Part shown: in pieces, positions 950 to 64,000 of the stretch
Layout of the letters: every line of letters starts with the position of its first letter
How positions within the stretch are numbered: position 1 is the stretch's first letter
Source: a virus
Reading direction: 5' to 3' (one strand)
DNA length: 64,000 nt
IMG/VR virus record: IMGVR_UViG_3300025381_000001
The notes under the pieces: model-generated
Seen by the model: only the letters and a program-made list of their open reading frames with translations
What the model was told of the DNA's origin: nothing
Database searches by the model: none
Made by a program: the position numbers and the translations under genes

Positions 950-1368
950 TCTTCATCTCCCATTAATTTCAATCCCTGCACGATATGAAGAGCCAAGGTC
1001 ATCAGCTTACTGACTGCTTTGTCCTTCCAAACTTTCTTTTCTTCTTCTGTCTTGAGCCCCCATTCGCCGTCCAAAATGGCTTGCAGCGTGTCGCAAACAC
1101 TACATGAACCATATCCAACTTTGACGTACCAGTAAGTGCTTGGCTGATAGATTGCCGCACCAATCACATACAACAATGTGCCTTGGTAGTCGCCGTCATC
1201 AATCTGGTGAATGCGTTTTGGATCGGGGGTTTCGTATTCACCTTCATCGTTCAACATCTCCACCACAGCAAGAACAATGTCGCTGTAGCTGCTTGGCAGT
1301 TTGGCTTCAAACTTTTCTTGAACTGAATCTTTGCGTTCAAACCAGCGTTTTGTAAATTTCTCAATCAT
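946..1368 (-). CDS. hypothetical protein (140 aa)
   Basis: Clean ORF in the coupled early operon with protein-like composition (GYGSCSVCDTLQ motif). Confidence 0.7.
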   Translation of the reverse strand: MIEKFTKRWFERKDSVQEKFEAKLPSSYSDIVLAVVEMLNDEGEYETPDPKRIHQIDDGDYQGTLLYVIGAAIYQPSTYWYVKVGYGSCSVCDTLQAILDGEWGLKTEEEKKVWKDKAVSKLMTLALHIVQGLKLMGDEE

Positions 1369-1697
1369 TTCTTATCTCCTTTTAAATAAAAATCATGTTC
1401 GGCAAGGGCTTGCTTCACATCATCTAAACACCTGCGGCCAAAGTTTGGGATGACCAACAAGTCGCGTTCGCGCATATCGAGTAACTGCCTGACCGTGTTG
1501 ATTTTCTCGGCACGCAAACAGTTGCTAGTACGCACAGTCAACAATAGGCAGTCAATGTCTTGCGACAACAACGGCGCTTGGTGTTCTTCCATTGCGATCA
1601 TGGTGCGATCGGGGATGACTGCGACCCACAACGTATCCACTTTGTTGAACTCCACGTGCTGCCCCAGTAGCGCGTAGACTTTTTTGTTTTCGTCCAT
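1365..1697 (-). CDS. RNA polymerase alpha-subunit C-terminal domain (alpha-CTD)-like protein
   Basis: LLLTVRTSNCLRAEKINTVRQLLDMRERDLLVIPNFGRRCLDDVKQAL aligns by eye with E. coli RpoA CTD [48 protein letters not shown]. Confidence 0.75.
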   Translation of the reverse strand: MDENKKVYALLGQHVEFNKVDTLWVAVIPDRTMIAMEEHQAPLLSQDIDCLLLTVRTSNCLRAEKINTVRQLLDMRERDLLVIPNFGRRCLDDVKQALAEHDFYLKGDKK

Positions 1698-1703
1698 GTG
1701 TCC

Positions 1704-2220: not shown

Positions 2221-2853
2221 TCAACCCTTAAAAATGTCTTTGAGCAAGTCGAACAACTGACGCGCTTGCACGACAGTCAACTTATTCACCACGCCCTCGG
2301 CTGTCCAGTTGCGAGTAAGCACGATCGACACAGGAGCCTGCGCCTCTTGCTTCGCACCAGTATCGACAGTCAACGCGGCAATGCCTGCTGATTTCTTTGT
2401 GGGCTTCTTGATAGCTTTGGCTGCTTTAGCGCTTTTGATCTTCTTGGCAAGGCTGTACGTCTTGTACTCTGTACCCACTGCATGAAAGCCACCCTGCACA
2501 TCTCGCGTCATCAATCCCACGCGCAACATTTGATAGATTAACGAGTCGGTGGAGTTGGTCTTGTACCCGCGCTTGAGCAGTGCTTCCACGATGTCTTTGC
2601 CCTTCAATCCGGGATTGTCTCGAACGAACTCGAAGGTGGCGCGTGTCACGCCGTTCTTTTCTTGGAAGCGGTGGGTTTGTTTGGTGGTGATGGTTTCAGT
2701 TGTTTGCATAGTGTCTTTCGATTGGGGTTGAGGTTGGGTTGATTGAAGCGTCTTGTTGTCCTCGTCTTCCCACTGTTTGAGTGTGACGGCAAGGTTGTTT
2801 TCGAATCCGCGATTGAGTAGTGCGGTGCTCAGTGCAGTTTGTAGATCAGGCAT
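2221..2853 (-). CDS. hypothetical protein, possible winged-helix DNA-binding region
   Basis: ORF with an AGGAGAAAG SD and its own sigma70-like promoter upstream. The central FEFVRDNPGLKGKDIVEALLKRGY segment looks wHTH-like. Confidence 0.65.
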   Translation of the reverse strand: MPDLQTALSTALLNRGFENNLAVTLKQWEDEDNKTLQSTQPQPQSKDTMQTTETITTKQTHRFQEKNGVTRATFEFVRDNPGLKGKDIVEALLKRGYKTNSTDSLIYQMLRVGLMTRDVQGGFHAVGTEYKTYSLAKKIKSAKAAKAIKKPTKKSAGIAALTVDTGAKQEAQAPVSIVLTRNWTAEGVVNKLTVVQARQLFDLLKDIFKG

Positions 2854-2879
2854 TGCTTTCTCCTAGTTAAGGTTTGGGA

Positions 2880-2908
2880 AATATATCCGAATCGGCTGAG
2901 GTTGTCAA
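2880..2908 (-). promoter_or_regulatory. sigma70-type promoter (TTGACA-17-TATATT) for 2221..2853
   Basis: On the minus strand TTGACA sits at 2908-2903, followed by a 17-nt spacer and TATATT at 2885-2880, about 25 nt before the SD. Confidence 0.55.
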
Positions 2909-2964
2909 CCGATGGACAAGAGAGGGGTAAGTTAGTGGTTGCTTTCGCTCCAAGCTTTTAGATT

Positions 2965-2983
2965 GGGGGTCGCGTTGACCCCC
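2965..2983. repeat. early-arm palindrome copy 1 (GGGGGTCgcgtTGACCCCC)
   Basis: Inverted repeat 16 nt beyond the stop of 2999..4060. It is followed by the motif TTGACACCCGTCA, which overlaps that stop codon. Confidence 0.85.
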
Positions 2984-2998
2984 AAAGATTGACACCCG

Positions 2999-4060
2999 TC
3001 AAACGAGCGCGGGTACTTTCGATGGTTGGTACGCCCAGTTCAGATGCCAACACATGACTTCCGCAACAGTCTCGGGGTCGTTACGCACGAAGTCGTGCAT
3101 GGTGGCTATGTCGTTGTCCAGACACGCCGCGATCACCTCGGCCTCGAAGTCATTTGTTGCGTTGTGTGTTGTCAACGTGGCCTCGAATGTACCCATAATG
3201 ATGTTGATACAAGTTATAGGCATCTCATCGAAGTACGCCGACAACAGTTCTGCATCCGCTTGCATCAGCGCGTCACCAAGCTCGTATGCGAAAGGCGCTT
3301 CTATCTTTGATTCTTGTTTTGCAAACTCGTTGTCAGTCATAGCGTGGATGCCCTTGGTCGATGTGAACTCGGTGCCAGCACTAGACCATGAGCCGATGAT
3401 CTCCTCATCCTCATCCCACATCTCGTAGCCATTGGAGAGATGACCATGCCACGCACGCTTGGTTGACTTGTAGTAGTTGGGGATGAGTTTGCTTGGCTTC
3501 CATGCGTAGGTATTGCTGAACCACATACCGTCATGCTCAACGCCTTGGTCATAGTTGACGTGGCTGATGCGCCCCTCGCCATTCATGAACACAAAGCGAT
3601 TGTCGCCAATGAACTCGGCCACCATTGTCAAGAAGCCTTTGTCGTACACGATGTCGGGATACTTCACTACGGTGTCATGCAGGTAGTCCTTGATGAAGTG
3701 ATACGTATCGCTACGCGCCGTGTCTGCCGCGTTACCTGTGTGCAGTACGCCGTTGTGCATCATTGCAATGAAGCCTGGCACTACGTCATAGGGATGGCAG
3801 TTGCTCAAGTCGGTGTGGCCGTGTGTAGTCCAGCGGAAGTGAATCGCCAGATCACGGTCGTCTTGCGGCATACGCTCGATCATGTTGCGTGCCTCGCCAA
3901 TGTTCTTGGGTAAGAACTTGTTGGCCTTGAGACCCTTGGATGTGCCGTACATGATGCCGATACCGTCAGGGTTGGAGGAGTAGATATCCGCAAGCAAGCC
4001 GTGAGTGTCCAGCAAGGTTGAACGGATTTTGTTTGATTGACCAGAGATGATTAAACACAT
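2999..4060 (-). CDS. Ntn-hydrolase / class-II glutamine amidotransferase-like (YafJ-type) protein
   Basis: Starts MCLIISG, so Cys follows the initiator Met. Also has DGIGIMYG, HFRWTTHGHTDLSNCHPY and MMHNGVL motifs in the typical class-II GATase order. Confidence 0.7.
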   Translation of the reverse strand: MCLIISGQSNKIRSTLLDTHGLLADIYSSNPDGIGIMYGTSKGLKANKFLPKNIGEARNMIERMPQDDRDLAIHFRWTTHGHTDLSNCHPYDVVPGFIAMMHNGVLHTGNAADTARSDTYHFIKDYLHDTVVKYPDIVYDKGFLTMVAEFIGDNRFVFMNGEGRISHVNYDQGVEHDGMWFSNTYAWKPSKLIPNYYKSTKRAWHGHLSNGYEMWDEDEEIIGSWSSAGTEFTSTKGIHAMTDNEFAKQESKIEAPFAYELGDALMQADAELLSAYFDEMPITCINIIMGTFEATLTTHNATNDFEAEVIAACLDNDIATMHDFVRNDPETVAEVMCWHLNWAYQPSKVPALV

Positions 4061-4074
4061 GATGATTTTCCTAG

Positions 4075-4266
4075 TTAGAAGTAGTTTGGGTTGAAAGGGG
4101 TGAGAGTGCTGTAGTAAAGCTGGCCGTTGGCGTCACGCGATACTGTGTAGGTGAGTGAACTGTGGTCAACACGAGGTGAGGGCTGGTTCAGCATTTGCAT
4201 ACGAATACGATTTGCTGCGGCATTAACTGCCGCGTCAAAGTGACCCCCGTTGGGCACGTTGCACAT
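4075..4266 (-). CDS. hypothetical small protein (start uncertain)
   Basis: ORF between the amidoligase and the GATase-like gene. It overlaps the amidoligase 3' end, and an alternative ATG at 4200 is possible. Confidence 0.4.
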   Translation of the reverse strand: MCNVPNGGHFDAAVNAAANRIRMQMLNQPSPRVDHSSLTYTVSRDANGQLYYSTLTPFNPNYF

Positions 4267-6082
4267 CACGCGACTCGGTAGTCACAGGCTCGGGCGCAGG
4301 GGTTACGTCTTCGCAGGTTGTGGCCGTTGCTTCCTTGACGCGCTTGCTCAAGCCATACCATTTGGCAAGGTTCGAGTACGCATTGTTGGTAGTCTTGAGC
4401 CATGCAACAAACGCTTCACCGTTCAAGTCACGCCACGATGCTGTGCGACAGAACATCACGACCGCATGAGTCCACTCGATCTGTGCAAGCAATCGTTCTT
4501 TCTTGAGCGAAGCCCTGAAGATACGAAGCTCGATAGTGTCGTAGCCACGGCGGTTGTAGTTGTCCTTGAGGCCTAGTCGGTTGCACTCGGAGCCTGTCAG
4601 GTTGTTCGTGTTAATCATGCGATAGCGTTGATCTGACTTACCCTTCAACGCCTTGCTCGGGTTGGTGAGGATGTCTTGATGCTCGGCGGCGCAATACTCA
4701 CGCGCTTGGTTGTCGCGGTTTGGATGACGACCTGCGATCTGGCGCACAAAGTCTGCGTTTGACTCGGCGTTGATGAACATGAAAAACTTACCGAGCGTCA
4801 GCTTGGAGAAGCCATGCGAGTCGATGTGGATGTGCATACCGCAACGCTTGGCATCCCATGCCCGAAACCCTTGTGGCACAACCCAGTCCTTGAACTGCTC
4901 GATGTGATGAGCCAGTCGGCGCGGTGCAGTCACGATCTCTAAGCCGTCGTCAGGCAAAGAGCCGTCATACTTACACACCACATAATCCTCGCCCAAGGCA
5001 GAGCGAATCTTGGATACCGCATCGCGCTTGTAGTTGTCCTCCCCTACGCCAATCTCCAACTCGATGCCCATGAGCAAGTCGCTGTAAGGTGTTGGCGTGA
5101 ACGATGTGTCTCGGTTCAGATGGTCGAGCACGTTGGTCGAGTAGTCCATGAGGGCGCTGGGATCACCATCGTCTCCGTCTTCGTCAGCCTCGTCAGAGTC
5201 ACGGTCATAGGAATAATACGCATCGTGGTTGTCGCTCCAGTACGCATCGTCACGCGACCAGTACTCGTTTCTATCCTCTACGAATACAGCATCATCACGG
5301 AAGCACGCATCGCACCACGTATCGTCACGCACATCATGCGTCTCGCCTGTGTACTCCATGTGGCCGCAGTCACAAACTTTTAGGTCGGTGTACAAACCCT
5401 TATCGTCTAAGAAGTCTTTAACACGGTCAAACCAATCGGATAGACCGTTTTGCACAGTCATGTTTTCATAGTGCTCGTGTATCCAGTCGTCAAACACAGA
5501 TACGTCATCGTCTGCAACGGCTTGCTTGATCGCGTTGTGACACGCGGCTGTAACAGCTTGTCTGTGCTTGTAGTCCGCCGCAGAGTAGGACATGGTGCCT
5601 TTGTAGACTGCATATGGGCGTGGTTTGTCGAGGCGCTCTCTCATCTGCCGCGTGACACGGCTTATGAATTTGTCCACAGGGCCAACGGTGTTCATGTACA
5701 TACGGTCAAATAACTTGATCTTGACCCCCAAACCTTGCTCGGGGTCACTAAGCCAACGCATTTGAATGGGCGTCAGTTCGGTGACTTGCAGGTTTTCGCT
5801 AGTGATATGGCCGTAGTGGGTATGTATAAAATCTTCTGGACTTTCTTCTGTGCTTGCACTCAGCACGTGCAGGTTTTCTGGGTTGAAACGGGTAGCGCGG
5901 TTTGTGAACAGCGAGGTTCTACGGTTTGTGGTCGATGTGCTTGCGTACAAGCCTGCATAGATTTTGCGGTGGCTTTGGTCATTTCTGATTTCGATTTGCT
6001 CTGCGATGAGCACCGTGTGCGATCTCCGTTTTGGTGTATCGAAAGAATCATTGGTTTGAAAGGTTGCGAAATAAAGTTTCAT
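4235..6082 (-). CDS. glutamine-synthetase-like amidoligase (Amidoligase_2 family) with long N-terminal extension
   Basis: ATG at 6082 has an AGGAGAA SD. The C-terminal half carries GIELEIGV, DGSLPDDGLEIVTAP, GMHIHID, RYRMIN and TIELRIFRASL motifs. The N-terminal half has CDCGH..CDAC and a poly-acidic run. Confidence 0.7.
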   Translation of the reverse strand: MKLYFATFQTNDSFDTPKRRSHTVLIAEQIEIRNDQSHRKIYAGLYASTSTTNRRTSLFTNRATRFNPENLHVLSASTEESPEDFIHTHYGHITSENLQVTELTPIQMRWLSDPEQGLGVKIKLFDRMYMNTVGPVDKFISRVTRQMRERLDKPRPYAVYKGTMSYSAADYKHRQAVTAACHNAIKQAVADDDVSVFDDWIHEHYENMTVQNGLSDWFDRVKDFLDDKGLYTDLKVCDCGHMEYTGETHDVRDDTWCDACFRDDAVFVEDRNEYWSRDDAYWSDNHDAYYSYDRDSDEADEDGDDGDPSALMDYSTNVLDHLNRDTSFTPTPYSDLLMGIELEIGVGEDNYKRDAVSKIRSALGEDYVVCKYDGSLPDDGLEIVTAPRRLAHHIEQFKDWVVPQGFRAWDAKRCGMHIHIDSHGFSKLTLGKFFMFINAESNADFVRQIAGRHPNRDNQAREYCAAEHQDILTNPSKALKGKSDQRYRMINTNNLTGSECNRLGLKDNYNRRGYDTIELRIFRASLKKERLLAQIEWTHAVVMFCRTASWRDLNGEAFVAWLKTTNNAYSNLAKWYGLSKRVKEATATTCEDVTPAPEPVTTESRDVQRAQRGSL

Positions 6083-6112
6083 TTGAATTCTCCTAGTTGA
6101 TGAAAAACATTT

Positions 6113-6129
6113 GGGGTCAGCTTGACCCC
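6113..6129. repeat. early-arm palindrome copy 2 (GGGGTCAgctTGACCCC)
   Basis: Lies between the stop of 6159..6491 and the amidoligase start. The CTGACACCCGTCA motif overlaps that stop codon. Confidence 0.85.
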
Positions 6130-6158
6130 TAAAAACGTCAGTAAGGGACTGACACCCG

Positions 6159-6491
6159 TCACTTTGTGATCTCCTCTCTTTCTTTTGGGTTACACGATTT
6201 GCATTGGTGGTCGTAGGTCTGCTCGTACTCCTGCGCTTCTTTATGCGTGTCGAACATATGTTCTTCTCCGCACTCGAAACATGGGTAGCACCACGTTGGT
6301 TCTGAGCCTTCGCTACCAATGAAGATACACGCGCTCCATCCTTCGTCATACACATACACATTGCCCGAGTTAGGGTTGATACCTGCGTCTGTGTACCTAG
6401 TGGTGGTCAAGCCTTCGGCCTCTAGCTTGGTGATGCACTTGATGAGGCGGCGCAGTTCGCGCCCGTGAAATTTCTCAAAGAAGTTTTCCAT
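6159..6491 (-). CDS. hypothetical protein with C-terminal zinc-ribbon-like Cys pairs
   Basis: GGAGAA SD. Contains CYPCFECGEEH...CKSC. Confidence 0.65.
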   Translation of the reverse strand: MENFFEKFHGRELRRLIKCITKLEAEGLTTTRYTDAGINPNSGNVYVYDEGWSACIFIGSEGSEPTWCYPCFECGEEHMFDTHKEAQEYEQTYDHQCKSCNPKEREEITK

Positions 6492-6671
6492 TTAGTTCTC
6501 CTTTCTGTTAGTTTTCACAACCACCGTCTCGCCTGTGCGTGTTTGGTATCCCAGCGCGTAGTCGTTGGCTATGCGGTACTTGTTAGTCACCAGCAACAAC
6601 TCACCGTCTTGCGTGTACACGCGGTACTCAAACCCTTCAATGGGTTGGTTGGTACTCGTTTCTTGACTCAT
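6492..6671 (-). CDS. hypothetical small protein (59 aa)
   Basis: The ATG at 6671 is chosen because the longer track ORF would run through palindrome copy 3. Its stop abuts the next gene's start. Confidence 0.5.
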   Translation of the reverse strand: MSQETSTNQPIEGFEYRVYTQDGELLLVTNKYRIANDYALGYQTRTGETVVVKTNRKEN

Positions 6672-6740
6672 ACAATTCCCTTTCGGCCAGCTAGTACAGG
6701 CAGGGAGCGCGGCGCGGCTAAACCATGCGCTCCCCGATTC

Positions 6741-6757
6741 GGGGTCACGTTGACCCC
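6741..6757. repeat. early-arm palindrome copy 3 (GGGGTCAcgtTGACCCC)
   Basis: 17 nt beyond the stop of 6774..7577. The TTGACATCCGTTA motif overlaps that stop codon. Confidence 0.85.
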
Positions 6758-6773
6758 TAAAAATTGACATCCG

Positions 6774-43638: not shown

Positions 43639-46600
43639 ATGCCCCAGTACCTGCCCCTACCCGATGGTTCATTTTTGCCGGTTAAAGACGGGCAAAATCC
43701 AAAAGAGGTGTGGCTCAAGGCAATGGAAGCATATCCCGATGCTTTTGGCGGGGGTGCAGCGCCCGAGGAAGCCAAAGACAAAACAGGGTTTGTTCCTGCT
43801 CTTGAATCGGGTATCGCAGGCCTCAAAGGTTCGGCAGCACTTACTGCCGGCAAGCTCGGCTTGATGAACCAAGACGCTGCTCAAAAATATTACGAAGAGC
43901 AGGTGCAGCACGGCAAAGACGTTTTTGCGCCAACCACTGAGAGCTGGTCTCAAGCTCCTTTCACAAAATTCAAAGAACTGGCCGGAAGTTCCTTGCCCTA
44001 CATGGTCGCGCCGCTTATCGGTGCAGCTGCTGCCCCCGAAGCTGCTGCTGTTGGTGCATTGGGTCTTGGTGCGGGTGAAGTTGGTGCAGGACTAGCGTCT
44101 CTTGGCCAGTTCACAGGCACTAACTTGGCGCGTCAAGTGGACGAGAACAAGTCTTTGCAGAACGCTTCATTGGGTTCCGCCGCTGCCGCTGCCTTGCCGC
44201 AAGCTGCTTTGGATGTGTTTTCTTTGCATATGCTTCCCGGTGTGCGCAGCATTCTAGGAAAAGCCGGCATCGAGTTGACCGAGCAACAAGCCGCTCAAGT
44301 TGCCAAACAAGGACTTAGCCAAACGCTGGCTAGCTACGGTGGTGCGACCTTGAAAGCAATGGGTGCAGAAGGTTTGACCGAAGCTGCCCAACAGTTCTTT
44401 GAACGCCTGCAAGCAGGTTTGAGCATCAACGACCCCGAAGCACGTCAAGAGTATTACGACAACTTCCTTGGCGGCGCGGTTCTTGGCGGTGCGCTAGCAC
44501 CTGTCGGCCATGCGTTTGAGCGCAGTGCAGCAAAGATTCAGCAACCCGCACCTGTTCGACAACCAACGCAACAGCCCGGTGTACAAGCACCTGCGGCACA
44601 ACAACCCGCAGAAGAAGTTCCTGAGCCGACCCTGCGCCAACCTGCGCCAGAAGAAGTGGCCGAAGGCCCTGCTGCGCCAGCCGTGCTGACCAAACAACAA
44701 AAAGCCGAAGCCGCACGCCAAAAGAAAGATCAAGAAGAGTACTTGCGCAAGTACGCACAACAGGCCGAAAACCGCCAAGCAGCTATTGCCGAATACCAGC
44801 GCGTCAAGGACATGTCGCCGGAGGAGTATGCGCTGGAGCAAATGCAAGGCGTGACGACTGTGCCCAAGAAGGTTCGCCCCGCCGCGCCTCAAGAGGACGA
44901 AACAGGCTACTACACGCAGCACCCCGCACCTCCTGCACCCCACGAAACCTACGCCGCGCAACAAATGGCGTTGGCCAAAGACCGCGAAGCCGCGCCGCAA
45001 ATCAAGGACTACCTTGACTATCTGATGCAAGACCCCAAACAAGCGCAAGCGCTGTTGGAAAACCGCACGCAAATCCCCGGCGTCACGGCAAAACAAAGCG
45101 AAGCGTTGCTGGGCGGCATCAAAATGCAGCTCAAAGCGCGTGCCGATGCCGCAGCCAAAGCCGAAGCTGCCCGAGTTAGCACTGCACAAGAACGTGCGCG
45201 TAGCATGTTCACGCAAAAGCCCGAAGATTTGCTGGCCGCTGCCAAAGAACAACCCGGTGTGCAAGCGCAAGCGGCAGTCAAACCAGAAGCCGAAGCCTTG
45301 CAACGCATTGGCCAGCGTCCAAACCCATACCTGACGGCAAACCGCGACATTGAAAATGACCGCCGCAACGAAGAACTTGCGGACAAACTGACACAAACCT
45401 TGCCTTTGGCCAACGGCCAGATCAATCCCGGCGATGTGTATTTGGGTCTTGGCCAAAAGAAACAGAACTACAAAGACTTGCAAGCGCAACTTGCTATTGC
45501 GCGTCTGACCGGCAACCGAGCATTGCAAGGCGAGATCAAGCGTCAACTGGATGCAACACGCCCTATCCCAACCGAAGGCGGTCTTGGCACGGAAGGCGGC
45601 AAAAACGCCGCTGAAATTATTGGCCGCAGCAAACTTCCAGAACTCCGCGTTAATGAAGCCGAGGCAGACCAGTTTGCTTCGGAGCAACGCAACACCTTGC
45701 TGGGCATGGCTCGCACACTGGCGTCCAAGAAAATTATGCTCCCCGGCAAACGTGCGGAGCTGTTGAGCAACGCCAAAGAGCAGTATGTGGCACAGCACGC
45801 GGCTGAAATTGAAGCGCGTCGCAAAGCGTTTGGTTTGCCTCCAATGGAAGATTGGGAACGCGCCGAAGCTCGCGCCCGTGCGCTGGAAGGTTTGAATACG
45901 CTGACCAACAACTGGGGGCAGTTTGAAGATCCTGCGATCAGCGTCAAAGCTTTACAAAACATTACACGCGAAGCGGTGTATCAAAACTTGTTCAAAGCCG
46001 CAACTCGTAAAGCCCAAACACAACAGTCAACACTGGCCGAAAAACTTGCGCCTCCCAAAACAGGCCCTCGGATTGCCGCGCCTGACGAGTTGACCTTGCG
46101 CAATGAGCCTAGACTGGCCACCGATACAAAGCAGCACGCACTCAACATGATTACGATGGCGCTGCGTGAAGGCCGTACTCGCGCTGTACCAACCACTACA
46201 GAAAAAGCTCCGGCTCGCGTGGGGTCGTTGGCAGACATGGCCACGTTGTTTGGCCAAGAAAAAGGCAAAGAAGCCAGCGCACAAACTGATGCCGCTACTA
46301 AACAGTTTCTTGAACAACTGCGTGACGGCTTAGAAACCAACAATGATCCAGAGTTTGTGAAGCTTGCCGCTGAACAAGCGCAGCGTGTTGTTGAAGGCAA
46401 CTTGCCTGATGAGTTTGCTGTGCGGGACTTGGGCGAAATGATGAAAGCGCATGAGGCTGCAGGCCGCAGCGCGACCCGTCCCGGTGCTACCCCAGAGGAG
46501 TTGCAACGCACCAGCGCCCAGCCTCAACGCGAATTGTTCCCCGAAGCTGGCCCCGAAGCCGAAGTGCAAACGCAACGCGCTACCCCGTCTAACTTCCAAA

Positions 46601-49600
46601 AAATGTTGGACTCTAAAAACATTCAAGGGCTGCGCGACGCAATTGAAAAACAACGCAAAGACAACTTGGCTGCATTGCAAGGTTTTGGCAAAGCTGCGCC
46701 CACGTTAAAGAACAAAGTTGAAACGGCAAAAAACACATACGAACGCAACTTGAAAAAATTGCAAAAAACTGTGGCCGTTTCAAACGAGTTTGACCGAGAA
46801 ATGCAGACCGACATTGCCGCAGCTACAGAAGCGCAAGCTGCGTGGCAAAAACAAGTGGACGATTTGCGTGAACGCGAAGCCGAAGTCACCGCCATGCGCG
46901 ATGCTTTGATGCAAGAACCCGAAGACATGTCCATTTTGATTAGCGCTCCTGCGGTGCTGAATCAAGAAAAAGCTATTCGTGTTGCGCTCAAACGCGCCGA
47001 AGAAGGTTTGGCTACCGCCAAAGAACTGACTGCGGCTGTGCAAGCCACCAATGCTGCACAAATGACTTTGGCCAAACCTGCTGTTGACCGCGCTGTAAAA
47101 GCTGAAGAGGATTTCAAGAAAGCACAAGCAGAACTTGCTGCGCTGCAAAACGAAGCCGCGCAAAAAGCACAAGCAGATGCCGCCGCTAAAGCGCGTGAAG
47201 AAAACCGTCAACCGGAAGCAGAACGCACCGCCGAAGAAAAACGTCGTGCGGCCATCCAACGTGGCCGTGAAGGGCTGGGGTTGGAAGGTGAGCGTGTGCA
47301 ACGTGATGTCAGCGCGATCAAAGAAGACAAAGACGATTTGAAACGCGAACTGGGGTCGTGGAATAACGAAGTCAACAAATACACGAAAGCCGTCAAAGCG
47401 CTTAAGCAGCTTGAACCGACCGAAACTAATATTACTAAACTGGGCAATGCAGAATCAAAACTGCAAATTGCCAAAGAAAACGAAGCGCGGGTTGAGCTGG
47501 AGCTTGCCGGTATTGAAAGCGAAGCGCCTTTGGTTCGCACGCCTATTAAAGACCGCACCGAAGCCGATGAAGCTTTTGAAAGAGCGCAAATTCAACAAGC
47601 ACGCGCTAGAAATGCTAAAGAAAACCTACCTTCAGAACTCCCTTCCGCACGCCGAGGCCCGGTCGTAAAACATGTGCGCACAGGTCGTACCGAACAAACG
47701 GGGCAACGCAAAGACGTTGTTGGCCGCGCCGATGCTGTTACCGATACTTTGATTGCTCGCCGCGCAGAATTAGCCGAGTTCAAACGCCGTGTAGATTTCT
47801 TGACTGAAAAAGGTAAACCTGTACCGCAAGCGTTGACCAACAAGCTCAATGCTGCACAAAAACGAACAGATGCTGCCGCAAAAATTCAAAAAGAAATTAG
47901 CACCCAAGAAGCTGCTGCCGCTAAAGAGCTGGCCAAAAGCAAAAAGAAGTACGGCAAAGACGAATTGGCACGCGAAGCCGGCGGTGAATACGAAAGCGCC
48001 CCAGTGACGTATTTGCGCAAAACAACCACCGAAGCTATCCGCGATGGCCGGATGCTGGATGTGGCCGACGAACTGGCCGAGCACGGGTCTACACAATTTG
48101 TGAAAGATTTGGCCGAACGCCTGCGCCCTTTGTTGATGCGCACAAAAATTGGTACAACACAAGACTTGATGGTGGATGGCAAGCCTGCTGGCGGCGCGTA
48201 CTACCTCGCAGAAAACCGGATCGCGCTGGACGATCAAAACATGACCGAAGAAGATTTGGTGCATGAAATGGTTCACGCGGCTACCATGCGCGTTCTTCGC
48301 GCCGACAACGCCGACTTGACCCCGACACAGCGCAAAGCCCGTGACGACTTGCAAAAGCTCTATGACCAAATCAAAGAAGACCCTGCGTTTGCCAAAGAGT
48401 ACGCCAAGAAAGACTTGGAAGAATTCGTGGCTGAAGCCATGTCTAACAGCAAACTGCAAGACAAGTTGGCCAGCACCAAAGTGGAAGGCGAGTCATTTTT
48501 TGACAAGCTCAAGCAGTTCATCATGCGCATGTTCGGCGTGGACACTCGCAGTGACGCATTCAAAACCGCTACTGACGCAATCGACAAGATTTTCAAACCC
48601 TCGGCCAAACTTGAAGCCGAAGTCAAGGCGCGTGCAGCGCCGACAGCCAAGGGGTTTGAGGACGAGCTGGGACTGGCCGAACGCATCATTGCCGACAAGC
48701 CGTCTATGCAGCAACAAATTGACGCCAACCTTGGGCTGAACTTTCGCACCAAATGGCTAGATCGTTTGGCACCGCTGGAGAAGATTGCGCAAACCATGAT
48801 GGACCCGCTCAAGGGTACTCAGATGATGTTCTTCTTGCGCATGGCAGACCAAAAAATGTCTTTCACGCAGCAGGCGGCAGCCAATGGTGTGCCACAAAAA
48901 GTAGCTATCAAACGCGCTGATGGTCGCACGGAATACGTCATTGAAAGTCAGAAGGGCGCAAACCTCGCCAACATTGCCAAGACTTTGGGCAAAGCGCCGG
49001 GCATGAACCCTGCGGCAGCAAACCGCTTGTTCACGCTTTATTTGGCCGGCAAACGCGCAGAGCGTGTGGGTGCTGACGTGCTGAACTTTGATGTGTCCGA
49101 ACAAGACTTGAAGAACGCAGTGGGCAAAATCGAAGCCAACAAAGAGCTGCATGATGTTTTTGAAGACGCACGCAACCAGTACAACGAGTACAACCGCAAC
49201 CTAGTCAACTTCCTGCAAGACATGGGCGTGATCTCTAAGGAGACTGCCGCTTCGCTTTCCAAAAGCAACGACTACATTCCGTACTACCGAGATCGCAACG
49301 GCGAGGCTGAATTGGTTATTGGGGGTGAAGGCACGTATCGCGTGGGCAGTTTGAAAGACCAACCCCAGCTGCGCGAGTTGATTGGGGGCAACCAGAAGAT
49401 TTTTGACTTCTTGACAAGCTCGGTGCAAAACACCAGCATGATTATGGACATGGGCTTGCGCAACATTGCCACCAAGAACGCAATGTTTGAGTTGCAAAGT
49501 TTGGGTCTTGCATCGTTTTACGGCGGCGAAGCCAGCGGCCCCAACGTGGTTCAGTTCCGCGAAGACGGCCAAGACCGGTACGTGCGCGTGGACACCGATG

Positions 49601-51168
49601 CCGCAGGCATCCCCTCAAACTTGTTGGTCAAAGGCATGGAAGGTATTCCGGTCAACAACTCCGCGCTTGTTCGCGCAATGGCCATGCCAGCAACATTGTT
49701 GCGCCGCGCAGTGACCGTGAGTCCTTTGTATTCCGCTCGTCAGATTTTCCGTGACTCGGTGGCCGCGCCCCTGACGTCCGGCGCTGACTTCACGCCAGTC
49801 ATGGCGGCAATCAAACAGATTGGGAAAATGGATACCAAAGGCACGCTGGAGTCACGCGGTATTGTGGGCGGTCAGGTGTTCACTGGCGGCAACGAGGACT
49901 TGACGCGCATTTTGGGCGAGTTCCAATCCGGCAAGATTGGTTTGTCTCAACTGGTGGCCAAGGCCGAAGCCGTGGCAATGGAAGCCGATGCGCTGACCCG
50001 CCGCGCCCAGTACGACTCTTACATTCGCCAAGGGCTGTCTGAGATGGAAGCCACGCTCATGTCTTTGGAGTCCATGAACTTTAACCGCAAGGGCATGTCG
50101 CCCAGCGTGCGTTTGGCATCCACATTGATTCCGTTCTTCAACGCCCAGTTGCAAAGCTTGGACGTGCTGTATCGCGCCATGACAGGCAAGATGCCAATGA
50201 ACGAGCGCTTGGATATCCAAGGCAAGTTGTACCGCCGTGGCGCGGCGCTTGCCGGTACTGCCATTGCTTACACGATGCTGATGCAAGATGACCCGCTGTA
50301 CAAGAATGCACAGCCTGACGAGAAGTACGGCAACTTCTTTGTGCATTTGCCCGGCATGAAAGAGGCGCTGCGCGTGCCTGTGCCGTTTGAAATCGGTTAC
50401 ATCTTCAAGTCAATTCCCGAGGCAATCATTAACTCGATGGCCAGCGATGCTGGCGCGGAAGATGCGTACAAGGCATTCAAGACAATTGCCATTCAAACCA
50501 TCCCCGGCGCGACTTCTGGATTCATGCCAGCAGGCGTCAAACCTTTGGTTGAGAACGCCACCAACCATTCGTTCTTCACAGGGCGCGAGTTGGAGTCCAA
50601 GGCCGAGCAAGAGCGCGAAGCCCAGTTCCGTTACCGCGATAGCACATCCGAGTTGGCCAAAGGCCTTGGTGCTATCACAGGTACTTCACCTATCAAACTG
50701 GAGAACCTGATTCGAGGATACACCGGCACGATGGGCATCGCCTTCACGCAAGCAATCAGTGCGGCCAGCCCCGGCAATGGCGTTCCTGCGCCAACCAAGA
50801 AGCTGTCGGAGATGCCGGTTATTGGCGCTGCGTTCCAACCAGAAGATGCTGGCGGCATGGTGAGCGATATGTACGATCACATGTCTCGCGCCCGTGAAGT
50901 GCAAAAGACCTACAACCAGTTGGTCAAAGAGGGCAACGGTGCGGAAGCTCGTCAGTACTTGCAAGAAAACGTCAACATGCTTGCCACTAAAACAATGACG
51001 GGCAACTTGCAAGAGACGATGGGCAAACTAAAGAAAGCGGAAATGGCGATCAAAGCGTCTAGCTTGACGCCTGATGAGAAACGCGCACGCTTGGATGAAA
51101 TCCAAAAAATGCGCATTCAAATCGCTTCTAATGTCCGTGGGGTCTACGAAAAAACCACACCCCGATGA
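43639..51168 (+). CDS. giant (2509 aa) virion-associated polyvalent/ejection protein with HExxH zincin motif
   Basis: Single uninterrupted ORF with four regions: an N-terminal Gly/Ala hydrophobic region, ~1300 aa of A/Q/E/K coiled-coil, HEMVH at nt 48262-48276 (aa ~1542), and a ~900-aa C-terminal domain. Confidence 0.7.
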   Translation: MPQYLPLPDGSFLPVKDGQNPKEVWLKAMEAYPDAFGGGAAPEEAKDKTGFVPALESGIAGLKGSAALTAGKLGLMNQDAAQKYYEEQVQHGKDVFAPTTESWSQAPFTKFKELAGSSLPYMVAPLIGAAAAPEAAAVGALGLGAGEVGAGLASLGQFTGTNLARQVDENKSLQNASLGSAAAAALPQAALDVFSLHMLPGVRSILGKAGIELTEQQAAQVAKQGLSQTLASYGGATLKAMGAEGLTEAAQQFFERLQAGLSINDPEARQEYYDNFLGGAVLGGALAPVGHAFERSAAKIQQPAPVRQPTQQPGVQAPAAQQPAEEVPEPTLRQPAPEEVAEGPAAPAVLTKQQKAEAARQKKDQEEYLRKYAQQAENRQAAIAEYQRVKDMSPEEYALEQMQGVTTVPKKVRPAAPQEDETGYYTQHPAPPAPHETYAAQQMALAKDREAAPQIKDYLDYLMQDPKQAQALLENRTQIPGVTAKQSEALLGGIKMQLKARADAAAKAEAARVSTAQERARSMFTQKPEDLLAAAKEQPGVQAQAAVKPEAEALQRIGQRPNPYLTANRDIENDRRNEELADKLTQTLPLANGQINPGDVYLGLGQKKQNYKDLQAQLAIARLTGNRALQGEIKRQLDATRPIPTEGGLGTEGGKNAAEIIGRSKLPELRVNEAEADQFASEQRNTLLGMARTLASKKIMLPGKRAELLSNAKEQYVAQHAAEIEARRKAFGLPPMEDWERAEARARALEGLNTLTNNWGQFEDPAISVKALQNITREAVYQNLFKAATRKAQTQQSTLAEKLAPPKTGPRIAAPDELTLRNEPRLATDTKQHALNMITMALREGRTRAVPTTTEKAPARVGSLADMATLFGQEKGKEASAQTDAATKQFLEQLRDGLETNNDPEFVKLAAEQAQRVVEGNLPDEFAVRDLGEMMKAHEAAGRSATRPGATPEELQRTSAQPQRELFPEAGPEAEVQTQRATPSNFQKMLDSKNIQGLRDAIEKQRKDNLAALQGFGKAAPTLKNKVETAKNTYERNLKKLQKTVAVSNEFDREMQTDIAAATEAQAAWQKQVDDLREREAEVTAMRDALMQEPEDMSILISAPAVLNQEKAIRVALKRAEEGLATAKELTAAVQATNAAQMTLAKPAVDRAVKAEEDFKKAQAELAALQNEAAQKAQADAAAKAREENRQPEAERTAEEKRRAAIQRGREGLGLEGERVQRDVSAIKEDKDDLKRELGSWNNEVNKYTKAVKALKQLEPTETNITKLGNAESKLQIAKENEARVELELAGIESEAPLVRTPIKDRTEADEAFERAQIQQARARNAKENLPSELPSARRGPVVKHVRTGRTEQTGQRKDVVGRADAVTDTLIARRAELAEFKRRVDFLTEKGKPVPQALTNKLNAAQKRTDAAAKIQKEISTQEAAAAKELAKSKKKYGKDELAREAGGEYESAPVTYLRKTTTEAIRDGRMLDVADELAEHGSTQFVKDLAERLRPLLMRTKIGTTQDLMVDGKPAGGAYYLAENRIALDDQNMTEEDLVHEMVHAATMRVLRADNADLTPTQRKARDDLQKLYDQIKEDPAFAKEYAKKDLEEFVAEAMSNSKLQDKLASTKVEGESFFDKLKQFIMRMFGVDTRSDAFKTATDAIDKIFKPSAKLEAEVKARAAPTAKGFEDELGLAERIIADKPSMQQQIDANLGLNFRTKWLDRLAPLEKIAQTMMDPLKGTQMMFFLRMADQKMSFTQQAAANGVPQKVAIKRADGRTEYVIESQKGANLANIAKTLGKAPGMNPAAANRLFTLYLAGKRAERVGADVLNFDVSEQDLKNAVGKIEANKELHDVFEDARNQYNEYNRNLVNFLQDMGVISKETAASLSKSNDYIPYYRDRNGEAELVIGGEGTYRVGSLKDQPQLRELIGGNQKIFDFLTSSVQNTSMIMDMGLRNIATKNAMFELQSLGLASFYGGEASGPNVVQFREDGQDRYVRVDTDAAGIPSNLLVKGMEGIPVNNSALVRAMAMPATLLRRAVTVSPLYSARQIFRDSVAAPLTSGADFTPVMAAIKQIGKMDTKGTLESRGIVGGQVFTGGNEDLTRILGEFQSGKIGLSQLVAKAEAVAMEADALTRRAQYDSYIRQGLSEMEATLMSLESMNFNRKGMSPSVRLASTLIPFFNAQLQSLDVLYRAMTGKMPMNERLDIQGKLYRRGAALAGTAIAYTMLMQDDPLYKNAQPDEKYGNFFVHLPGMKEALRVPVPFEIGYIFKSIPEAIINSMASDAGAEDAYKAFKTIAIQTIPGATSGFMPAGVKPLVENATNHSFFTGRELESKAEQEREAQFRYRDSTSELAKGLGAITGTSPIKLENLIRGYTGTMGIAFTQAISAASPGNGVPAPTKKLSEMPVIGAAFQPEDAGGMVSDMYDHMSRAREVQKTYNQLVKEGNGAEARQYLQENVNMLATKTMTGNLQETMGKLKKAEMAIKASSLTPDEKRARLDEIQKMRIQIASNVRGVYEKTTPR

Positions 51169-63670: not shown

Positions 63671-64000
63671 CTAGGTATTGATCTCTACGGGTGTCAATTC
63701 TTTTTCTTTGGCCAGCAAGAACAACAGGCAGCACCCAGCGTGCGCAAGGTGTGAGAGGCCTGTCTCGGGGTCTAGCTCCTCGTCTTGGTTGTAGGCAACG
63801 AGGTGTCGCAGTGCGGCGGCTAGGTAGCGTTGTTTGTGGTTTGGCACAGCACGCCAGTTGTTGCGTGCGTACTTCTTCGCGCCAAACTCCAGCACCTTCA
63901 CAATCTCTTCGAGACCACTCCAAGGCACGAGTGTGTAGTCCAGTTTGTCGGCATCAAACTTCAAGCCGATTTGGTTTTCATTGGGGATAGGTTTAGTCAT
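63671..64000 (-). CDS. DUF5664-like (dATP/dGTP diphosphohydrolase N-terminal domain-like) protein
   Basis: DADKLDYTLVPWSGLEEIVKVLEFGAKKYARNNW...AAALRHLVAY...ETGLSHLAHAGCCLLFL matches the family pattern as I recall it. The ATG sits exactly at the window edge, so the true start may lie outside. Confidence 0.5.
   Translation of the reverse strand: MTKPIPNENQIGLKFDADKLDYTLVPWSGLEEIVKVLEFGAKKYARNNWRAVPNHKQRYLAAALRHLVAYNQDEELDPETGLSHLAHAGCCLLFLLAKEKELTPVEINT

What the first reader, a model, noticed from the sequence alone, without database searches (positions are those of the whole stretch)
2965..6129. Hairpin-bracketed early cassette: glutamine-synthetase-like amidoligase plus Ntn/class-II-GATase-like hydrolase
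4235..6082 carries the motif series GIELEIGV / DGSL..GLEIVTAP / GMHIHID / RYRMIN / TIELRIFRASL. I associate this series with the Amidoligase_2 family, which has a glutamine synthetase / gamma-glutamyl ligase-like fold.

2999..4060 starts MCLII, placing a Cys nucleophile right after the initiator Met. It then shows HFRWTTHG..NCHPY and HNG, as in class-II amidotransferase/YafJ-type Ntn hydrolases.

Pairing an amidoligase with a GATase-like thiol peptidase is a conserved neighbourhood noted in comparative genomics (Aravind-lab amidoligase survey and the Pfam family note, both from memory). It is predicted to add and remove peptide-like or gamma-glutamyl-type amide tags, or to make an amide-linked metabolite. 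I know of no demonstrated phage function.

This version has three extras:
- a ~300-aa N-terminal extension with CDCGH..CDAC and an Asp/Glu run;
- a small intervening ORF;
- copies 1 and 2 of the early-arm palindrome on either side, so it looks like a discrete module.

The target could be a host or phage protein, the cell wall, a nucleotide or DNA.
Basis: partly seen in the sequence, partly recalled or inferred. Interest (0 to 1): 0.75.

Follow-up and report, generated by a model that had tools for sequence, protein, structure and literature searches.

The report
Phage amidoligase plus glutaminase-type hydrolase pair
An uncultured aquatic phage carries, among its early genes, an ATP-dependent amide-bond ligase next to a glutaminase-type hydrolase; this gene pair is already noted in several unrelated phage groups, its target has never been tested, and this copy is a new, domain-extended member rather than a new kind of system.

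Summary
All genes lie on the minus strand:
- a 615-aa Amidoligase_2 protein (4235..6082);
- a doubtful 64-aa ORF (4075..4269);
- a 353-aa class-II glutamine-amidotransferase/Ntn-type protein starting MC (2999..4060);
- perfect 17-nt hairpins at 6113 and 2966.

Catalytic residues of both enzymes are invariant across homologues. Predicted folds match glutamine synthetase/YbdK for the ligase, and GlmS/EgtC/PurF for the hydrolase.

The two genes are adjacent, ligase first, in every related contig that is long enough. The same holds in at least five other phage lineages.

The pairing is already known: the Pfam note, LUZ24/phiEco32/RIO-1 "peptidoglycan modification cassette" papers, and OM43 phage papers. 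No function has been demonstrated.

Features specific to this copy:
- a zinc-ribbon plus Asp/Tyr-repeat module found only fused to this ligase;
- a hypervariable N-terminus;
- a helical C-terminal domain on the hydrolase.

The hairpins do not mark this cassette. They punctuate all early genes, and each related phage has its own stem sequence with both arms changed together.

The most likely mechanism is a gamma-glutamyl-type amide made by the ligase and cleaved by the hydrolase, on an unknown target (inferred). Verdict: new member of a known kind, moderate interest.

The parts
6113..6129 (.). Perfect hairpin GGGGTCA-NNN-TGACCCC (7-bp stem, 3-nt loop). It lies 30 nt after the stop of the upstream 110-aa gene and 30 nt before the ligase ATG.
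   Evidence: Conserved at the same place in the 89%-identical relative L007. RNA fold about -10.7 kcal/mol.
5393..6082 (-). Ligase aa 1-230: beta/alpha N-terminal region, poorly conserved and variable in length among homologues.
   Evidence: Alignment A1. AF2 model. Few of the 77 representative clusters match aa 1-130. The Zn motif position ranges from aa 46 to 483 among homologues. No structural match.
5093..5377 (-). Ligase aa 236-330: zinc-ribbon-like motif (C239, H241, C257, C260 invariant) followed by Asp/Tyr/Trp-rich beta-hairpin repeats and an acidic disordered linker.
   Evidence: The module is found only about 100 aa upstream of this ligase domain in full-length hits. CxxC motifs at the same position in MW202733 and MEP401.
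4343..5080 (-). Ligase aa 335-580: Amidoligase_2 catalytic domain (GS/GCS2 fold). Invariant residues: E341, E343, K371, D373, E382, H417, H419, R486, E518, R520.
   Evidence: Pfam PF12224 27.8 bits. PHROGs 16683 and 7469. A1 invariants. Foldseek PDB top 4 are GS 8fbp and 5dm3 and YbdK 1r8g and 1tt4. BFVD 'Amidoligase enzyme' 2.5e-15.
4235..6082 (-). Whole amidoligase gene (615 aa, stop at 4235-4237).
   Evidence: P0001 is 100% identical and 615 aa.
4231..4247 (.). Degenerate copy of the hairpin (2 mismatches) over the ligase stop codon. Possibly a relic of the inter-gene hairpin that 25 of 62 relatives carry here.
   Evidence: inference.
4075..4269 (-). 64-aa ORF in the ligase-hydrolase spacer; doubtful gene. 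It lacks the phage's usual AACTAGGAGA ribosome-binding site. It is 24 codons in L007 (in-frame deletion of about 120 nt, 40 codons) and has no family hit.
3476..4060 (-). Hydrolase aa 1-195: class-II glutamine amidotransferase / Ntn domain. It carries the Cys2 nucleophile and GlmS-like Gln-binding residues (R76, T79-H80-G81, N87-H89-P90, N103-G104, D118-T119).
3293..3475 (-). Hydrolase aa 196-256: Tyr/Trp/acidic low-confidence linker (pLDDT below 50 for aa 201-252).
3002..3292 (-). Hydrolase aa 257-353: family-specific helical C-terminal domain (P281 and W342 invariant among close homologues). No known relative.
2966..2982 (.). Perfect hairpin 17 nt after the hydrolase stop. It is preceded by TGACGGGTGTCA, which contains the stop codon.
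   Evidence: Same position in L007 and L008.
2880..2908 (-). Sigma-70-like promoter TTGACA-17-TATATT (11 of 12) for the next gene, 2221..2853. It lies outside the cassette and marks its downstream limit.
   Evidence: consensus match only.

Best explanation
This is a two-enzyme amide-bond module expressed with the phage's early genes. It is predicted to be cytoplasmic.

**Enzyme 1 (615 aa)** is an ATP-dependent carboxylate-amine ligase of the glutamine-synthetase/GCS2 fold. By analogy with that fold, it activates a carboxylate as an acyl-phosphate and joins it to an amine. Its catalytic core is preceded by a zinc-ribbon/Asp-Tyr-repeat module and a fast-evolving N-terminal region. I infer that these choose the target.

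**Enzyme 2 (353 aa)** is a Cys-nucleophile Ntn hydrolase of the class-II glutamine-amidotransferase type. Its pocket keeps every residue that holds the free alpha-amino and alpha-carboxyl groups of a glutaminyl or gamma-glutamyl moiety. It also has an extra helical domain.

**Most likely mechanism.** The ligase makes a gamma-glutamyl-type amide (Glu gamma-carboxyl plus an amine of the target). The hydrolase then cleaves that same kind of bond, as a protect/deprotect or write/erase pair. Known parallels are EgtA/EgtC and PuuA/PuuD. The target is unknown. Candidates are a host protein, a cell-wall precursor or a polyamine-like amine.

**Shown here:** family and fold membership, intact active sites, strict gene coupling, and no transmembrane-length hydrophobic stretch in either protein.

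**Inferred:** the chemistry, the gamma-glutamyl nature of the bond, the order of action and the target.
For: **Ligase**
- PF12224 scores above its cut-off.
- The GS-type series ExE...E...HxH...R...ExR is invariant in 26 sequences.
- Foldseek's top 4 PDB hits are GS and YbdK.
- BFVD phage amidoligases match down to 2.5e-15.

**Hydrolase**
- M1-C2, R76, N103-G104 and D118 are invariant in 29 sequences.
- A family profile hits PurF, GlmS and the YafJ-like 1te5 at 8e-5 to 9e-4.
- Foldseek matches the GlmS glutaminase domain (6.7e-6) and EgtC (3e-5), the gamma-glutamyl hydrolase of ergothioneine synthesis.
- The partner protein in MW202733 (34% identical) passes Pfam GATase_4, the family I recall as YafJ/EgtC-type (own knowledge).

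**Coupling**
- The hydrolase lies directly downstream of the ligase in 74 of 85 loci.
- Of the 11 without it, 10 are contigs that end within about 1 kb of the ligase. The eleventh is the distant Clostridioides phage locus L003.
- The same order is seen in MW202733, MEP401/402, LUZ24, Acinetobacter phage vB_AciJM_313 and Escherichia phage ECO319P1.

**Gamma-glutamyl logic**
- LUZ24 places a GGACT gamma-glutamylamine cyclotransferase and a RimK-like ATP-grasp enzyme beside its pair.
- Clostridial prophages pair amidoligase with gamma-glutamyl cyclotransferase.

**Macromolecular-target hint**
- The Zn-ribbon module occurs only fused to this ligase, and the N-termini vary strongly in length.

**Location**
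- Neither protein has a hydrophobic stretch of transmembrane strength (maximum KD19 1.12).
Against: - No substrate is identified, and no experiment exists for any member.
- A ligase and a hydrolase acting on the same bond with no intermediate enzyme would be a futile ATP-consuming cycle. A third, host-encoded step or a regulatory logic must be assumed.
- The window hydrolase misses the Pfam gathering scores.
- Fold E-values for the ligase are weak (4e-3 to 2e-2).
- Similarity to GlmS is as good as to EgtC, so an ammonia-donor role is not excluded.
- All 80 metagenomic loci are one syntenic phage family. Independent support for the coupling therefore rests on about six lineages.
Confidence: 0.4

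Rival explanations
1. Glutamine-dependent amidation complex. The class-II GATase hydrolyses glutamine and passes ammonia to the GS-fold ligase. The ligase converts an ATP-activated carboxylate into a carboxamide. The model is MurT/GatD amidating peptidoglycan D-iso-glutamate, or AsnB-type enzymes. This fits the published idea that the phage alters cell-wall peptides to block superinfection.
For: - All Gln-binding and oxyanion residues of GlmS/PurF are kept. HFRWTTHG resembles the corresponding GlmS motif as I recall it (own knowledge).
- GS-fold enzymes naturally use ammonia as nucleophile (established knowledge).
- Gene adjacency is strict and the order is fixed.
- Both proteins carry extra domains that could dock them to each other.
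- Papers propose peptidoglycan modification for the homologous cassette.
Against: - To my knowledge, no GS/GCS2-fold enzyme is known to take ammonia from a GATase partner.
- The nearest Pfam family of the clade is the stand-alone hydrolase type GATase_4.
- The co-occurrence of gamma-glutamyl cyclotransferases in other phages points to gamma-glutamyl bonds rather than ammonia transfer.
- No peptidoglycan-binding, signal or membrane segment is present.
- The other cassette genes (second ligase, ATP-grasp, GGACT) are absent here.
Confidence: 0.27
2. DNA or nucleotide hypermodification. The ligase adds an amino acid or amine to a carboxyl- or amino-bearing modified base in phage DNA, and the GATase supplies or trims it. 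This would protect the genome from restriction.
For: - Amidoligase and amidotransferase genes co-occur with thymidine-hypermodification clusters in viral contigs (PMC8989533).
- An unrelated ATP-dependent amide ligase, CmoY, decorates 5-carboxymethylcytosine (PMC12783734).
- A zinc ribbon could bind nucleic acid.
- A dATP/dGTP diphosphohydrolase-like gene is present at 63671..64000.
Against: - No dUMP/dCMP hydroxymethylase, 5-HMUDK kinase, aGPT-Pplase, DNA methyltransferase/CmoX, DpdA or PurZ appeared among about 70 window ORFs scanned with Pfam.
- The pair sits in the early arm among small early genes (one MarR-like, one RNA polymerase alpha-CTD-like), not in the replication arm.
Confidence: 0.08
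3. Auxiliary metabolic genes acting on a free small molecule, for example gamma-glutamylation and release of polyamines or methylamine, or glutathione turnover. The aim would be to re-route host nitrogen or redox metabolism.
For: - Known GS-like/GATase-like enzyme pairs act on free amines: PuuA/PuuD, GmaS with NMG synthase, EgtA/EgtC (established knowledge; EgtC match).
- OM43 phage authors list the pair among AMGs.
Against: - The ligase has about 330 extra residues, with a Zn ribbon and a hypervariable N-terminus, and the hydrolase has an extra domain. This is unusual for small-molecule enzymes.
- No close cellular homologues were listed by name among the hits, which were all unnamed metagenomic proteins.
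Confidence: 0.15

Closest known systems
Amidoligase_2 (PF12224) with GATase-like thiol peptidase neighbourhood (Iyer, Abhiman, Burroughs & Aravind 2009, cited). Phage examples: LUZ24 gp18/gp19, tf, PaP3, UFV-P2, phiEco32, RIO-1, OM43 phages MEP401/402.
   Same: - The same two superfamilies, in the same order (ligase then GATase), on the same strand, in the early or DNA-metabolism region of podoviruses.
- Function is untested in all of them.
   Different: - The window proteins are only remotely similar to LUZ24 gp18/gp19; hhalign matches only the core motifs.
- The window lacks the second ligase (COOH-NH2_lig), the RimK-like ATP-grasp enzyme and GGACT.
- The window ligase adds about 330 N-terminal residues with a Zn ribbon, and the hydrolase adds a helical C-terminal domain. 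MEP401 and MW202733 share the Zn-motif feature.
EgtA / EgtC of mycobacterial ergothioneine synthesis
   Same: A GCS2-type carboxylate-amine ligase makes a gamma-glutamyl amide. A stand-alone class-II GATase-like Ntn hydrolase with an N-terminal Cys later removes the glutamate. EgtC is among the best structural matches (3e-5, target TM 0.54).
   Different: - About 16% identity.
- The Egt pathway has intervening enzymes (EgtB, EgtD) that are absent here.
- The phage enzymes carry extra domains.
- The substrate is unknown.
Glutamine synthetase / YbdK (GCS2) carboxylate-amine ligases
   Same: The fold and the ordered acidic/His/Arg catalytic series.
   Different: - No sequence-level PDB hit.
- The oligomeric state is unknown.
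- The domain is much shorter (about 245 aa).
- It is fused to phage-specific N-terminal modules.
GlmS / PurF glutaminase domains and YafJ-like 1te5
   Same: The Cys1 nucleophile, the Arg/Asn-Gly/Asp glutamine pocket and the Ntn alpha-beta-beta-alpha fold.
   Different: - No synthase domain in cis.
- NCBIfam GlmS scores of 26 bits against a cut-off near 400 show it is not GlmS.
- It has a C-terminal helical domain of unknown kind.
MurT/GatD peptidoglycan amidation complex
   Same: An ATP-dependent ligase plus a glutaminase encoded side by side. This is the functional analogue for the amidation rival (PMC3267633, listed).
   Different: The folds differ: a Mur-ligase and a class-I GATase. No homology to the window proteins.
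T4-type PeSL elements (promoter-early stem-loops flanking shuffled early genes; from memory, not checked here) and intrinsic terminators
   Same: Repeated stem-loops sit between early genes. In relatives many are followed by a T-run.
   Different: - The stem is identical within a genome but differs, with both arms changed together, between related phages.
- Most window copies lack a T-run.
- No promoter consensus is attached.

Membership tests
Amidoligase_2 (PF12224) | Profile match at or above Pfam's gathering score | tested here: met
   27.8 bits against a cut-off of 22, aa 381-542. Also phrog_16683 at 9.5e-19 and phrog_7469 'amidoligase enzyme' at 6e-8.
Amidoligase_2 (PF12224) | GS-type metal/ATP/phosphate-binding residues kept (ExE, E, HxH, R, ExR) | tested here: met
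   E341, E343, E382, H417, H419, R486, E518 and R520 are invariant in 26 sequences that are 31-90% identical to the query.
Amidoligase_2 (PF12224) | Glutamine synthetase / GCS2-like fold | tested here: met
   AF2 pLDDT is 80-97 over most of the domain. The four best PDB matches are GS (8fbp, 5dm3) and YbdK (1r8g, 1tt4), at modest E-values of 4e-3 to 2e-2. BFVD amidoligases match at 2.5e-15.
Amidoligase_2 (PF12224) | ATP-dependent amide-bond formation | not testable with these tools
   Needs an enzyme assay. The papers searched report no assay for any member.
Class-II glutamine amidotransferase / Ntn hydrolase (GATase_4/6) | Profile match at or above Pfam's gathering score | tested here: not met
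   GATase_6 scores 16.5 against 27 and GATase_4 scores 12.7 against 23. The MW202733 homologue (34% identical) passes GATase_4 at 26.7 against 23. A family profile hits PurF/GlmS/1te5 at 8e-5 to 9e-4.
Class-II glutamine amidotransferase / Ntn hydrolase (GATase_4/6) | Cys nucleophile directly after the initiator Met | tested here: met
   M1 and C2 are invariant in 29 sequences, including MW202733 and MEP401. AciJM313 and ECO319P1 also start MC.
Class-II glutamine amidotransferase / Ntn hydrolase (GATase_4/6) | Glutamine-pocket residues: Arg (alpha-carboxylate), Asn-Gly (oxyanion hole), Asp (alpha-amino) | tested here: met
   R76, N103-G104 and D118 are invariant. The HFRWTTHG...NCHPY...HNG stretch (aa 74-106) aligns to PurF. 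Equating R76, N103-G104 and D118 with the Gln-pocket residues of GlmS/PurF rests on my knowledge of those enzymes.
Class-II glutamine amidotransferase / Ntn hydrolase (GATase_4/6) | Ntn alpha-beta-beta-alpha fold | tested here: met
   Foldseek matches GlmS glutaminase at 6.7e-6, EgtC at 3e-5, and PurF and 1te5 with probability 1.0. Model pLDDT is about 80-94 over much of aa 1-190, with dips to 65-79.
Conserved amidoligase-GATase gene pair | The two genes adjacent and co-oriented across unrelated genomes | tested here: met
   74 of 85 loci have the pair, and 10 of the other 11 are cut by contig ends. At least five further phage lineages show it. Two distant phages, Clostridioides AR1086-1 and Microcoleus, showed no GATase next to the ligase.
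Podovirus 'peptidoglycan modification cassette' (RIO-1 / phiEco32 / LUZ24 type) | Second ligase (COOH-NH2_lig PF14395), RimK-like ATP-grasp enzyme and gamma-glutamyl cyclotransferase alongside the pair | tested here: not met
   All are present in LUZ24. None was found among about 70 window ORFs scanned with Pfam.
Thymidine/cytosine hypermodification gene clusters | Base hydroxymethylase, 5-HMUDK, aGPT-Pplase, or CmoA/CmoX near the ligase | tested here: not met
   No such Pfam family was found in the window. About 1.9 kb of the roughly 65.9-kb genome lies outside the window.
Intrinsic (rho-independent) terminator | GC-rich stem-loop followed by a U-run | tested here: inconclusive
   Only 2 of the 6 window copies (6113, 9106) pass the scan. 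Many copies in relatives are followed by ATTCTTTTTT.
N4-type hairpin promoters for a virion RNA polymerase | A virion-packaged giant RNA polymerase | tested here: not met
   The stem and loop sizes (7 bp, 3 nt) fit. However, the 2509-aa virion protein has no PDB sequence match at E 0.1 or below and only an LPD38 polyvalent-protein domain. TerL groups the phage with HTVC023P-type phages, not N4.

The most novel reading that the evidence does not exclude
The pair is an early host-takeover writer/eraser. The ligase uses its zinc-ribbon and fast-evolving N-terminal adaptor to covalently attach a glutamate-derived amide tag to a specific host macromolecule, for example a transcription, translation or defence protein. 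The Ntn hydrolase removes or matures the tag. This would be a phage-encoded, pupylation-like or glutamylation-like protein-modification system.
Probability: 0.15. Interest if true: 0.8.

Novelty: new member of a known kind. Interest (0 to 1): 0.42.

Why it matters
The amidoligase-GATase pair is one of the more widespread phage enzyme pairs with no known function. It occurs in Pseudomonas, Escherichia, Acinetobacter, marine and freshwater phages. It has been carried through annotations for about 15 years with an untested "cell-wall modification" label.

This window shows a large uncultured aquatic phage family in which a stripped-down two-gene version is a constant early module. That makes a cleaner test case than the 5-7-gene cassettes.

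It also supplies concrete handles:
- invariant catalytic residues to mutate;
- a ligase-specific zinc-ribbon module;
- a hypervariable N-terminus that may point to a macromolecular target.

Finding the substrate would assign a function to many phage genes and could reveal a new host-takeover chemistry. As it stands, the finding adds a member and some anatomy, not a mechanism.

Tried and rejected
1. **Small ORF as a detached C-terminal domain.** I asked whether the 64-aa ORF is the roughly 85-aa C-terminal extension that about 20 ligase homologues carry. An HMM of that extension did not report the ORF at E 10 or below, while L006 scored 1.8e-26. Rejected.
2. **Small ORF as a conserved gene.** It is 24 codons in L007, and most relatives have a 21-60 nt spacer. 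It has no strong RBS. Treated as doubtful.
3. **Hairpins as N4-type promoters.** No RNA polymerase similarity in the 2509-aa protein. Not supported.
4. **Hairpins as markers of a mobile cassette.** They flank nearly every early gene and often split the pair. Rejected.
5. **Word-index search with the Zn-ribbon segment.** It found no candidates, so that search was wasted. The exhaustive HMMER search replaced it.
6. **Iyer et al. 2009 (PMC3268129).** Not held. Its claims are cited only through papers that quote it.
7. **PADLOC defence models.** No hit for any of the three proteins.
8. **Megablast of the cassette against phage records.** No match.
9. **PDB sequence search with the ligase profile.** No hit.
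10. **Mycobacteriophage Tesla protein.** I looked for the "glutamine amidotransferase domain protein" that matches the ligase fold, as a possible fusion. It was not retrievable by tblastn. Left open.
11. **DNA-modification partner genes.** None found.

Full report
**1. What is there**

The finding lies in a leftward-transcribed arm (about 1-9300) of a roughly 66-kb phage genome.
- An identical ligase protein occurs on contigs up to 65,856 bp.
- The large terminase is closest to Phage DSL-LC04, Pelagibacter phages HTVC027P/HTVC023P and Planktothrix phage Pag-Yong1, at 45-52% identity.

On the minus strand, in order of transcription:
- hairpin at 6129-6113;
- a 615-aa gene, 6082..4235, behind the ribosome-binding site AACTAGGAGA;
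- a 174-nt spacer holding a 64-aa ORF (4269..4075);
- a 353-aa gene, 4060..2999;
- hairpin at 2982-2966.

- G+C of the cassette (0.521) equals that of the window (0.519).
- Neither protein has a hydrophobic stretch of transmembrane strength.

**2. The ligase**

Family and fold:
- Pfam Amidoligase_2 is matched above its gathering score: 27.8 against 22 bits, aa 381-542. PHROG amidoligase families match as well.
- 117 homologues of 339-787 aa were found, all metagenomic. Many align over the full length.
- In an alignment of 26 of them (31-90% identical to the query), these residues are invariant: E341 and E343 (GIELE), K371/D373/G374/S375, E382, H417 and H419 (GMHIH), R486/Y487/N491, and E518 and R520 (ELRIFR). 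This is the ordered acidic/His/Arg series of glutamine-synthetase-fold enzymes.
- The AlphaFold model has mean pLDDT 76, and 80-97 over most of the catalytic part.
- Its four best PDB matches are glutamine synthetases 8fbp and 5dm3 and YbdK/GCS2 ligases 1r8g and 1tt4. E-values are modest, 4e-3 to 2e-2.
- It matches predicted phage "amidoligase enzyme" structures down to 2.5e-15.
- A sequence profile finds no solved structure.

N-terminal extension:
- Upstream of the catalytic domain, C239, H241, C257 and C260 are invariant, forming a zinc-ribbon-like motif.
- These are followed by conserved Asp/Tyr/Trp-rich beta-hairpin repeats and an acidic disordered linker.
- An exhaustive HMMER search with aa 1-335 found only 77 representative clusters among 1.84 billion proteins. 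Most match only aa 230-335.
- Every full-length hit carries the ligase domain about 100 residues after the zinc motif. The zinc motif itself sits anywhere from residue 46 to 483.
- The zinc module is therefore an obligatory accessory of this ligase subfamily, and the far N-terminus is highly variable.
- MW202733 and MEP401 ligases also have CxxC motifs just before the catalytic domain.

**3. The hydrolase**

- The window protein alone gives only sub-threshold Pfam hits: GATase_6 16.5 against 27 and GATase_4 12.7 against 23. It gives local GlmS hits in NCBIfam.
- It has 447 homologues, the listed ones being 238-423 aa.
- Invariant residues are M1-C2, N30/D32/G33, H74/R76/T79/H80/G81, N87/H89/P90, H102/N103/G104 and D118/T119. 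These are the nucleophile, the arginine and aspartate that hold the substrate's alpha-carboxylate and alpha-amino groups, and the Asn-Gly oxyanion hole of GlmS/PurF.
- A family profile hits PurF, GlmS and the YafJ-like protein 1te5 at 8e-5 to 9e-4.
- The model has pLDDT 75.
- It matches the GlmS glutaminase domain (6.7e-6), EgtC (3e-5), PurF and 1te5, all with probability 1.0.
- The homologue in MW202733 passes Pfam GATase_4.
- Residues 201-252 form a low-confidence Tyr/Trp/acidic linker. Residues 258-344 form a helical domain with no recognisable relative.

**4. Coupling of the two genes**

- Among 85 loci with a ligase, 74 have the hydrolase immediately downstream on the same strand. The gap is usually 21-60 nt.
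- Ten of the other eleven end within about 1 kb of the ligase. The eleventh is the distant Clostridioides phage locus L003.
- These 80 viral contigs are one syntenic family, so they count as one lineage.
- Independent lineages with the same order are:
  - MW202733, which encodes an integrase and an annotated RNA polymerase;
  - Methylophilales phages MEP401/402, Zobellviridae;
  - LUZ24 gp18/gp19;
  - Acinetobacter phage vB_AciJM_313, with a 676-aa ligase and a 294-aa MC-protein at 6.4e-14;
  - Escherichia phage ECO319P1.
- Two distant ligase carriers (Clostridioides phage AR1086-1, Microcoleus phage) showed no neighbouring GATase.
- The cultured TerL relatives gave no tblastn hit to either protein.

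**5. The spacer ORF**

- The closest relative, L007 (89% ligase identity), has a 60-nt spacer, and the ORF there is 24 codons after an in-frame deletion of about 120 nt.
- Only the window's own clade has long spacers of 135-214 nt; L012 has 410 nt and L011 has 1049 nt.
- The ORF has no family hit, and I see no strong ribosome-binding site.
- It is not related to the C-terminal extension of some ligases.
- I treat it as doubtful.
- A 2-mismatch copy of the hairpin overlaps the ligase stop. This is where 25 of 62 relatives carry a hairpin.

**6. The hairpins**

- The window has six exact copies, all in the early arm. Five lie 4-30 nt after a stop codon.
- L007 and L008 keep them at the same positions.
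- Each related phage has its own repeated perfect stem. Examples are GGGGAGA/TCTCCCC, GGGGACA/TGTCCCC, CGGGGAC/GTCCCCG, GGGGTAG/CTACCCC and TGTTGAA/TTCAACA. Both arms change together between phages, and loop sequence and length vary within a genome.
- Across 62 loci: 51 have a copy just upstream of the ligase, 25 between the two genes, 27 right after the hydrolase, and none inside either coding sequence.
- Many copies in relatives are followed by ATTCTTTTTT. Only 2 of the 6 window copies pass a terminator scan.
- They are general punctuation of early genes. Terminator, attenuator or RNA-end elements are the likeliest reading, possibly recognised by a factor that evolves together with the stem.
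- They do not define this cassette.

**7. What is known**

- Phage papers annotate the pair in LUZ24-like phages, phage tf and OM43 phages.
- They place it in a seven-gene "peptidoglycan modification cassette" of RIO-1, phiEco32, 7-11, PA11, tf, LUZ24, PaP3 and CW02. That cassette is hypothesised to alter the cell surface against superinfection.
- All trace back to Iyer et al. 2009, which I could not read.
- LUZ24 carries COOH-NH2_lig, Amidoligase_2, GATase_6, a RimK-like protein and GGACT together.
- No paper found reports an experiment on any member.
- The window has none of the extra cassette genes and no base-modification genes among about 70 ORFs scanned.

**8. Mechanism**

- Shown: two intact enzymes of known superfamilies, strictly coupled, with no transmembrane-length hydrophobic stretch, in the early arm.
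- Inferred, and preferred at about 0.4: the ligase forms a gamma-glutamyl-type amide and the Ntn hydrolase cleaves it.
- Three observations support this preference:
  - The hydrolase pocket is built for a free glutamyl moiety.
  - Its nearest family is the stand-alone hydrolase type that I recall as including EgtC and YafJ.
  - Other phages add gamma-glutamyl cyclotransferases to the set.
- The main rival, at about 0.27, is a glutamine-dependent amidation complex in the manner of MurT/GatD.
- A free-metabolite role (0.15) and DNA hypermodification (0.08) are less likely.
- The variable N-terminus and zinc ribbon hint at a macromolecular target. This is a hint only.

**9. Verdict**

- The "extras" are partly real (N-terminal module, C-terminal domain) and partly not (small ORF, hairpin bracketing).
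- This is a new member of a known but functionally unsolved kind. Interest is moderate.

Noticed in passing
window 2966, 6113, 6741, 7947, 8659, 9106; loci L004-L087: Each related phage contig repeats its own perfect 6-8-bp stem hairpin 3-8 times between early genes. The stem sequence differs between phages, with both arms changed together, while loops vary within a genome. This suggests a structure-dependent early-gene punctuation element, possibly read by a phage factor that changes with the stem.
   Followed up: partly
window 2990-3001, 6150-6161, 6765-6776 (minus strand); also L008, L030: The 12-mer T(G/A)ACGG(G/A)TGTCA, itself a TGAC..GTCA palindrome, contains the stop codon of three different early genes. 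It sits 6-25 nt before a hairpin.
   Followed up: partly
window 1365..1697 (-): A 110-aa early protein matches the C-terminal domain of bacterial RNA polymerase alpha subunit (PF03118, 2.7e-20). It is a possible phage mimic or competitor of alpha-CTD. It is conserved in L007.
   Followed up: no
window 43639..51168 (+): A 2509-aa protein encoded next to a transglycosylase-domain protein (tail/lysis PHROG matches) carries an LPD38 'large polyvalent protein' domain (2.4e-30). It has no PDB sequence match and no recognisable RNA polymerase.
   Followed up: partly
window 63671..64000 (-): A 109-aa protein matches dATP/dGTP diphosphohydrolase N-terminal domain (PF18909, 9.3e-33), which I recall as MazZ-like. 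No PurZ was seen in the window, but about 1.9 kb of the genome lies outside it.
   Followed up: no
window about 8600-8650 and 6690-6735 (minus strand); L013, L019, L021, L077: A second GC-rich stem-loop, followed by TGTTYC...CCCTGTCC, recurs 10-50 nt downstream of some early hairpins in several related phages.
   Followed up: no
window 9378-9467 and 9709-9783 (+): Two tRNA calls lie between the divergent arms. tRNA-Pro(TGG) is confirmed by Rfam (67 bits). The 90-nt tRNA-Ala(AGC) call from ARAGORN is not.
   Followed up: partly
homologues P0025-P0108 (about 20 proteins), e.g. L006 5965..8106: Some ligase homologues carry an extra conserved C-terminal domain of about 85 aa (YPL.IPYD...YFPYSGD...DVVY...W.L) of unknown kind. 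It is absent from the window protein.
   Followed up: partly
window 2221..2853 (-): The gene after the cassette (210 aa) gives weak PHROG hits to MarR-type or activator transcription regulators. It is behind the only strong sigma-70-like promoter of the early arm (2908..2880). It is conserved in 61 of 81 related loci.
   Followed up: no
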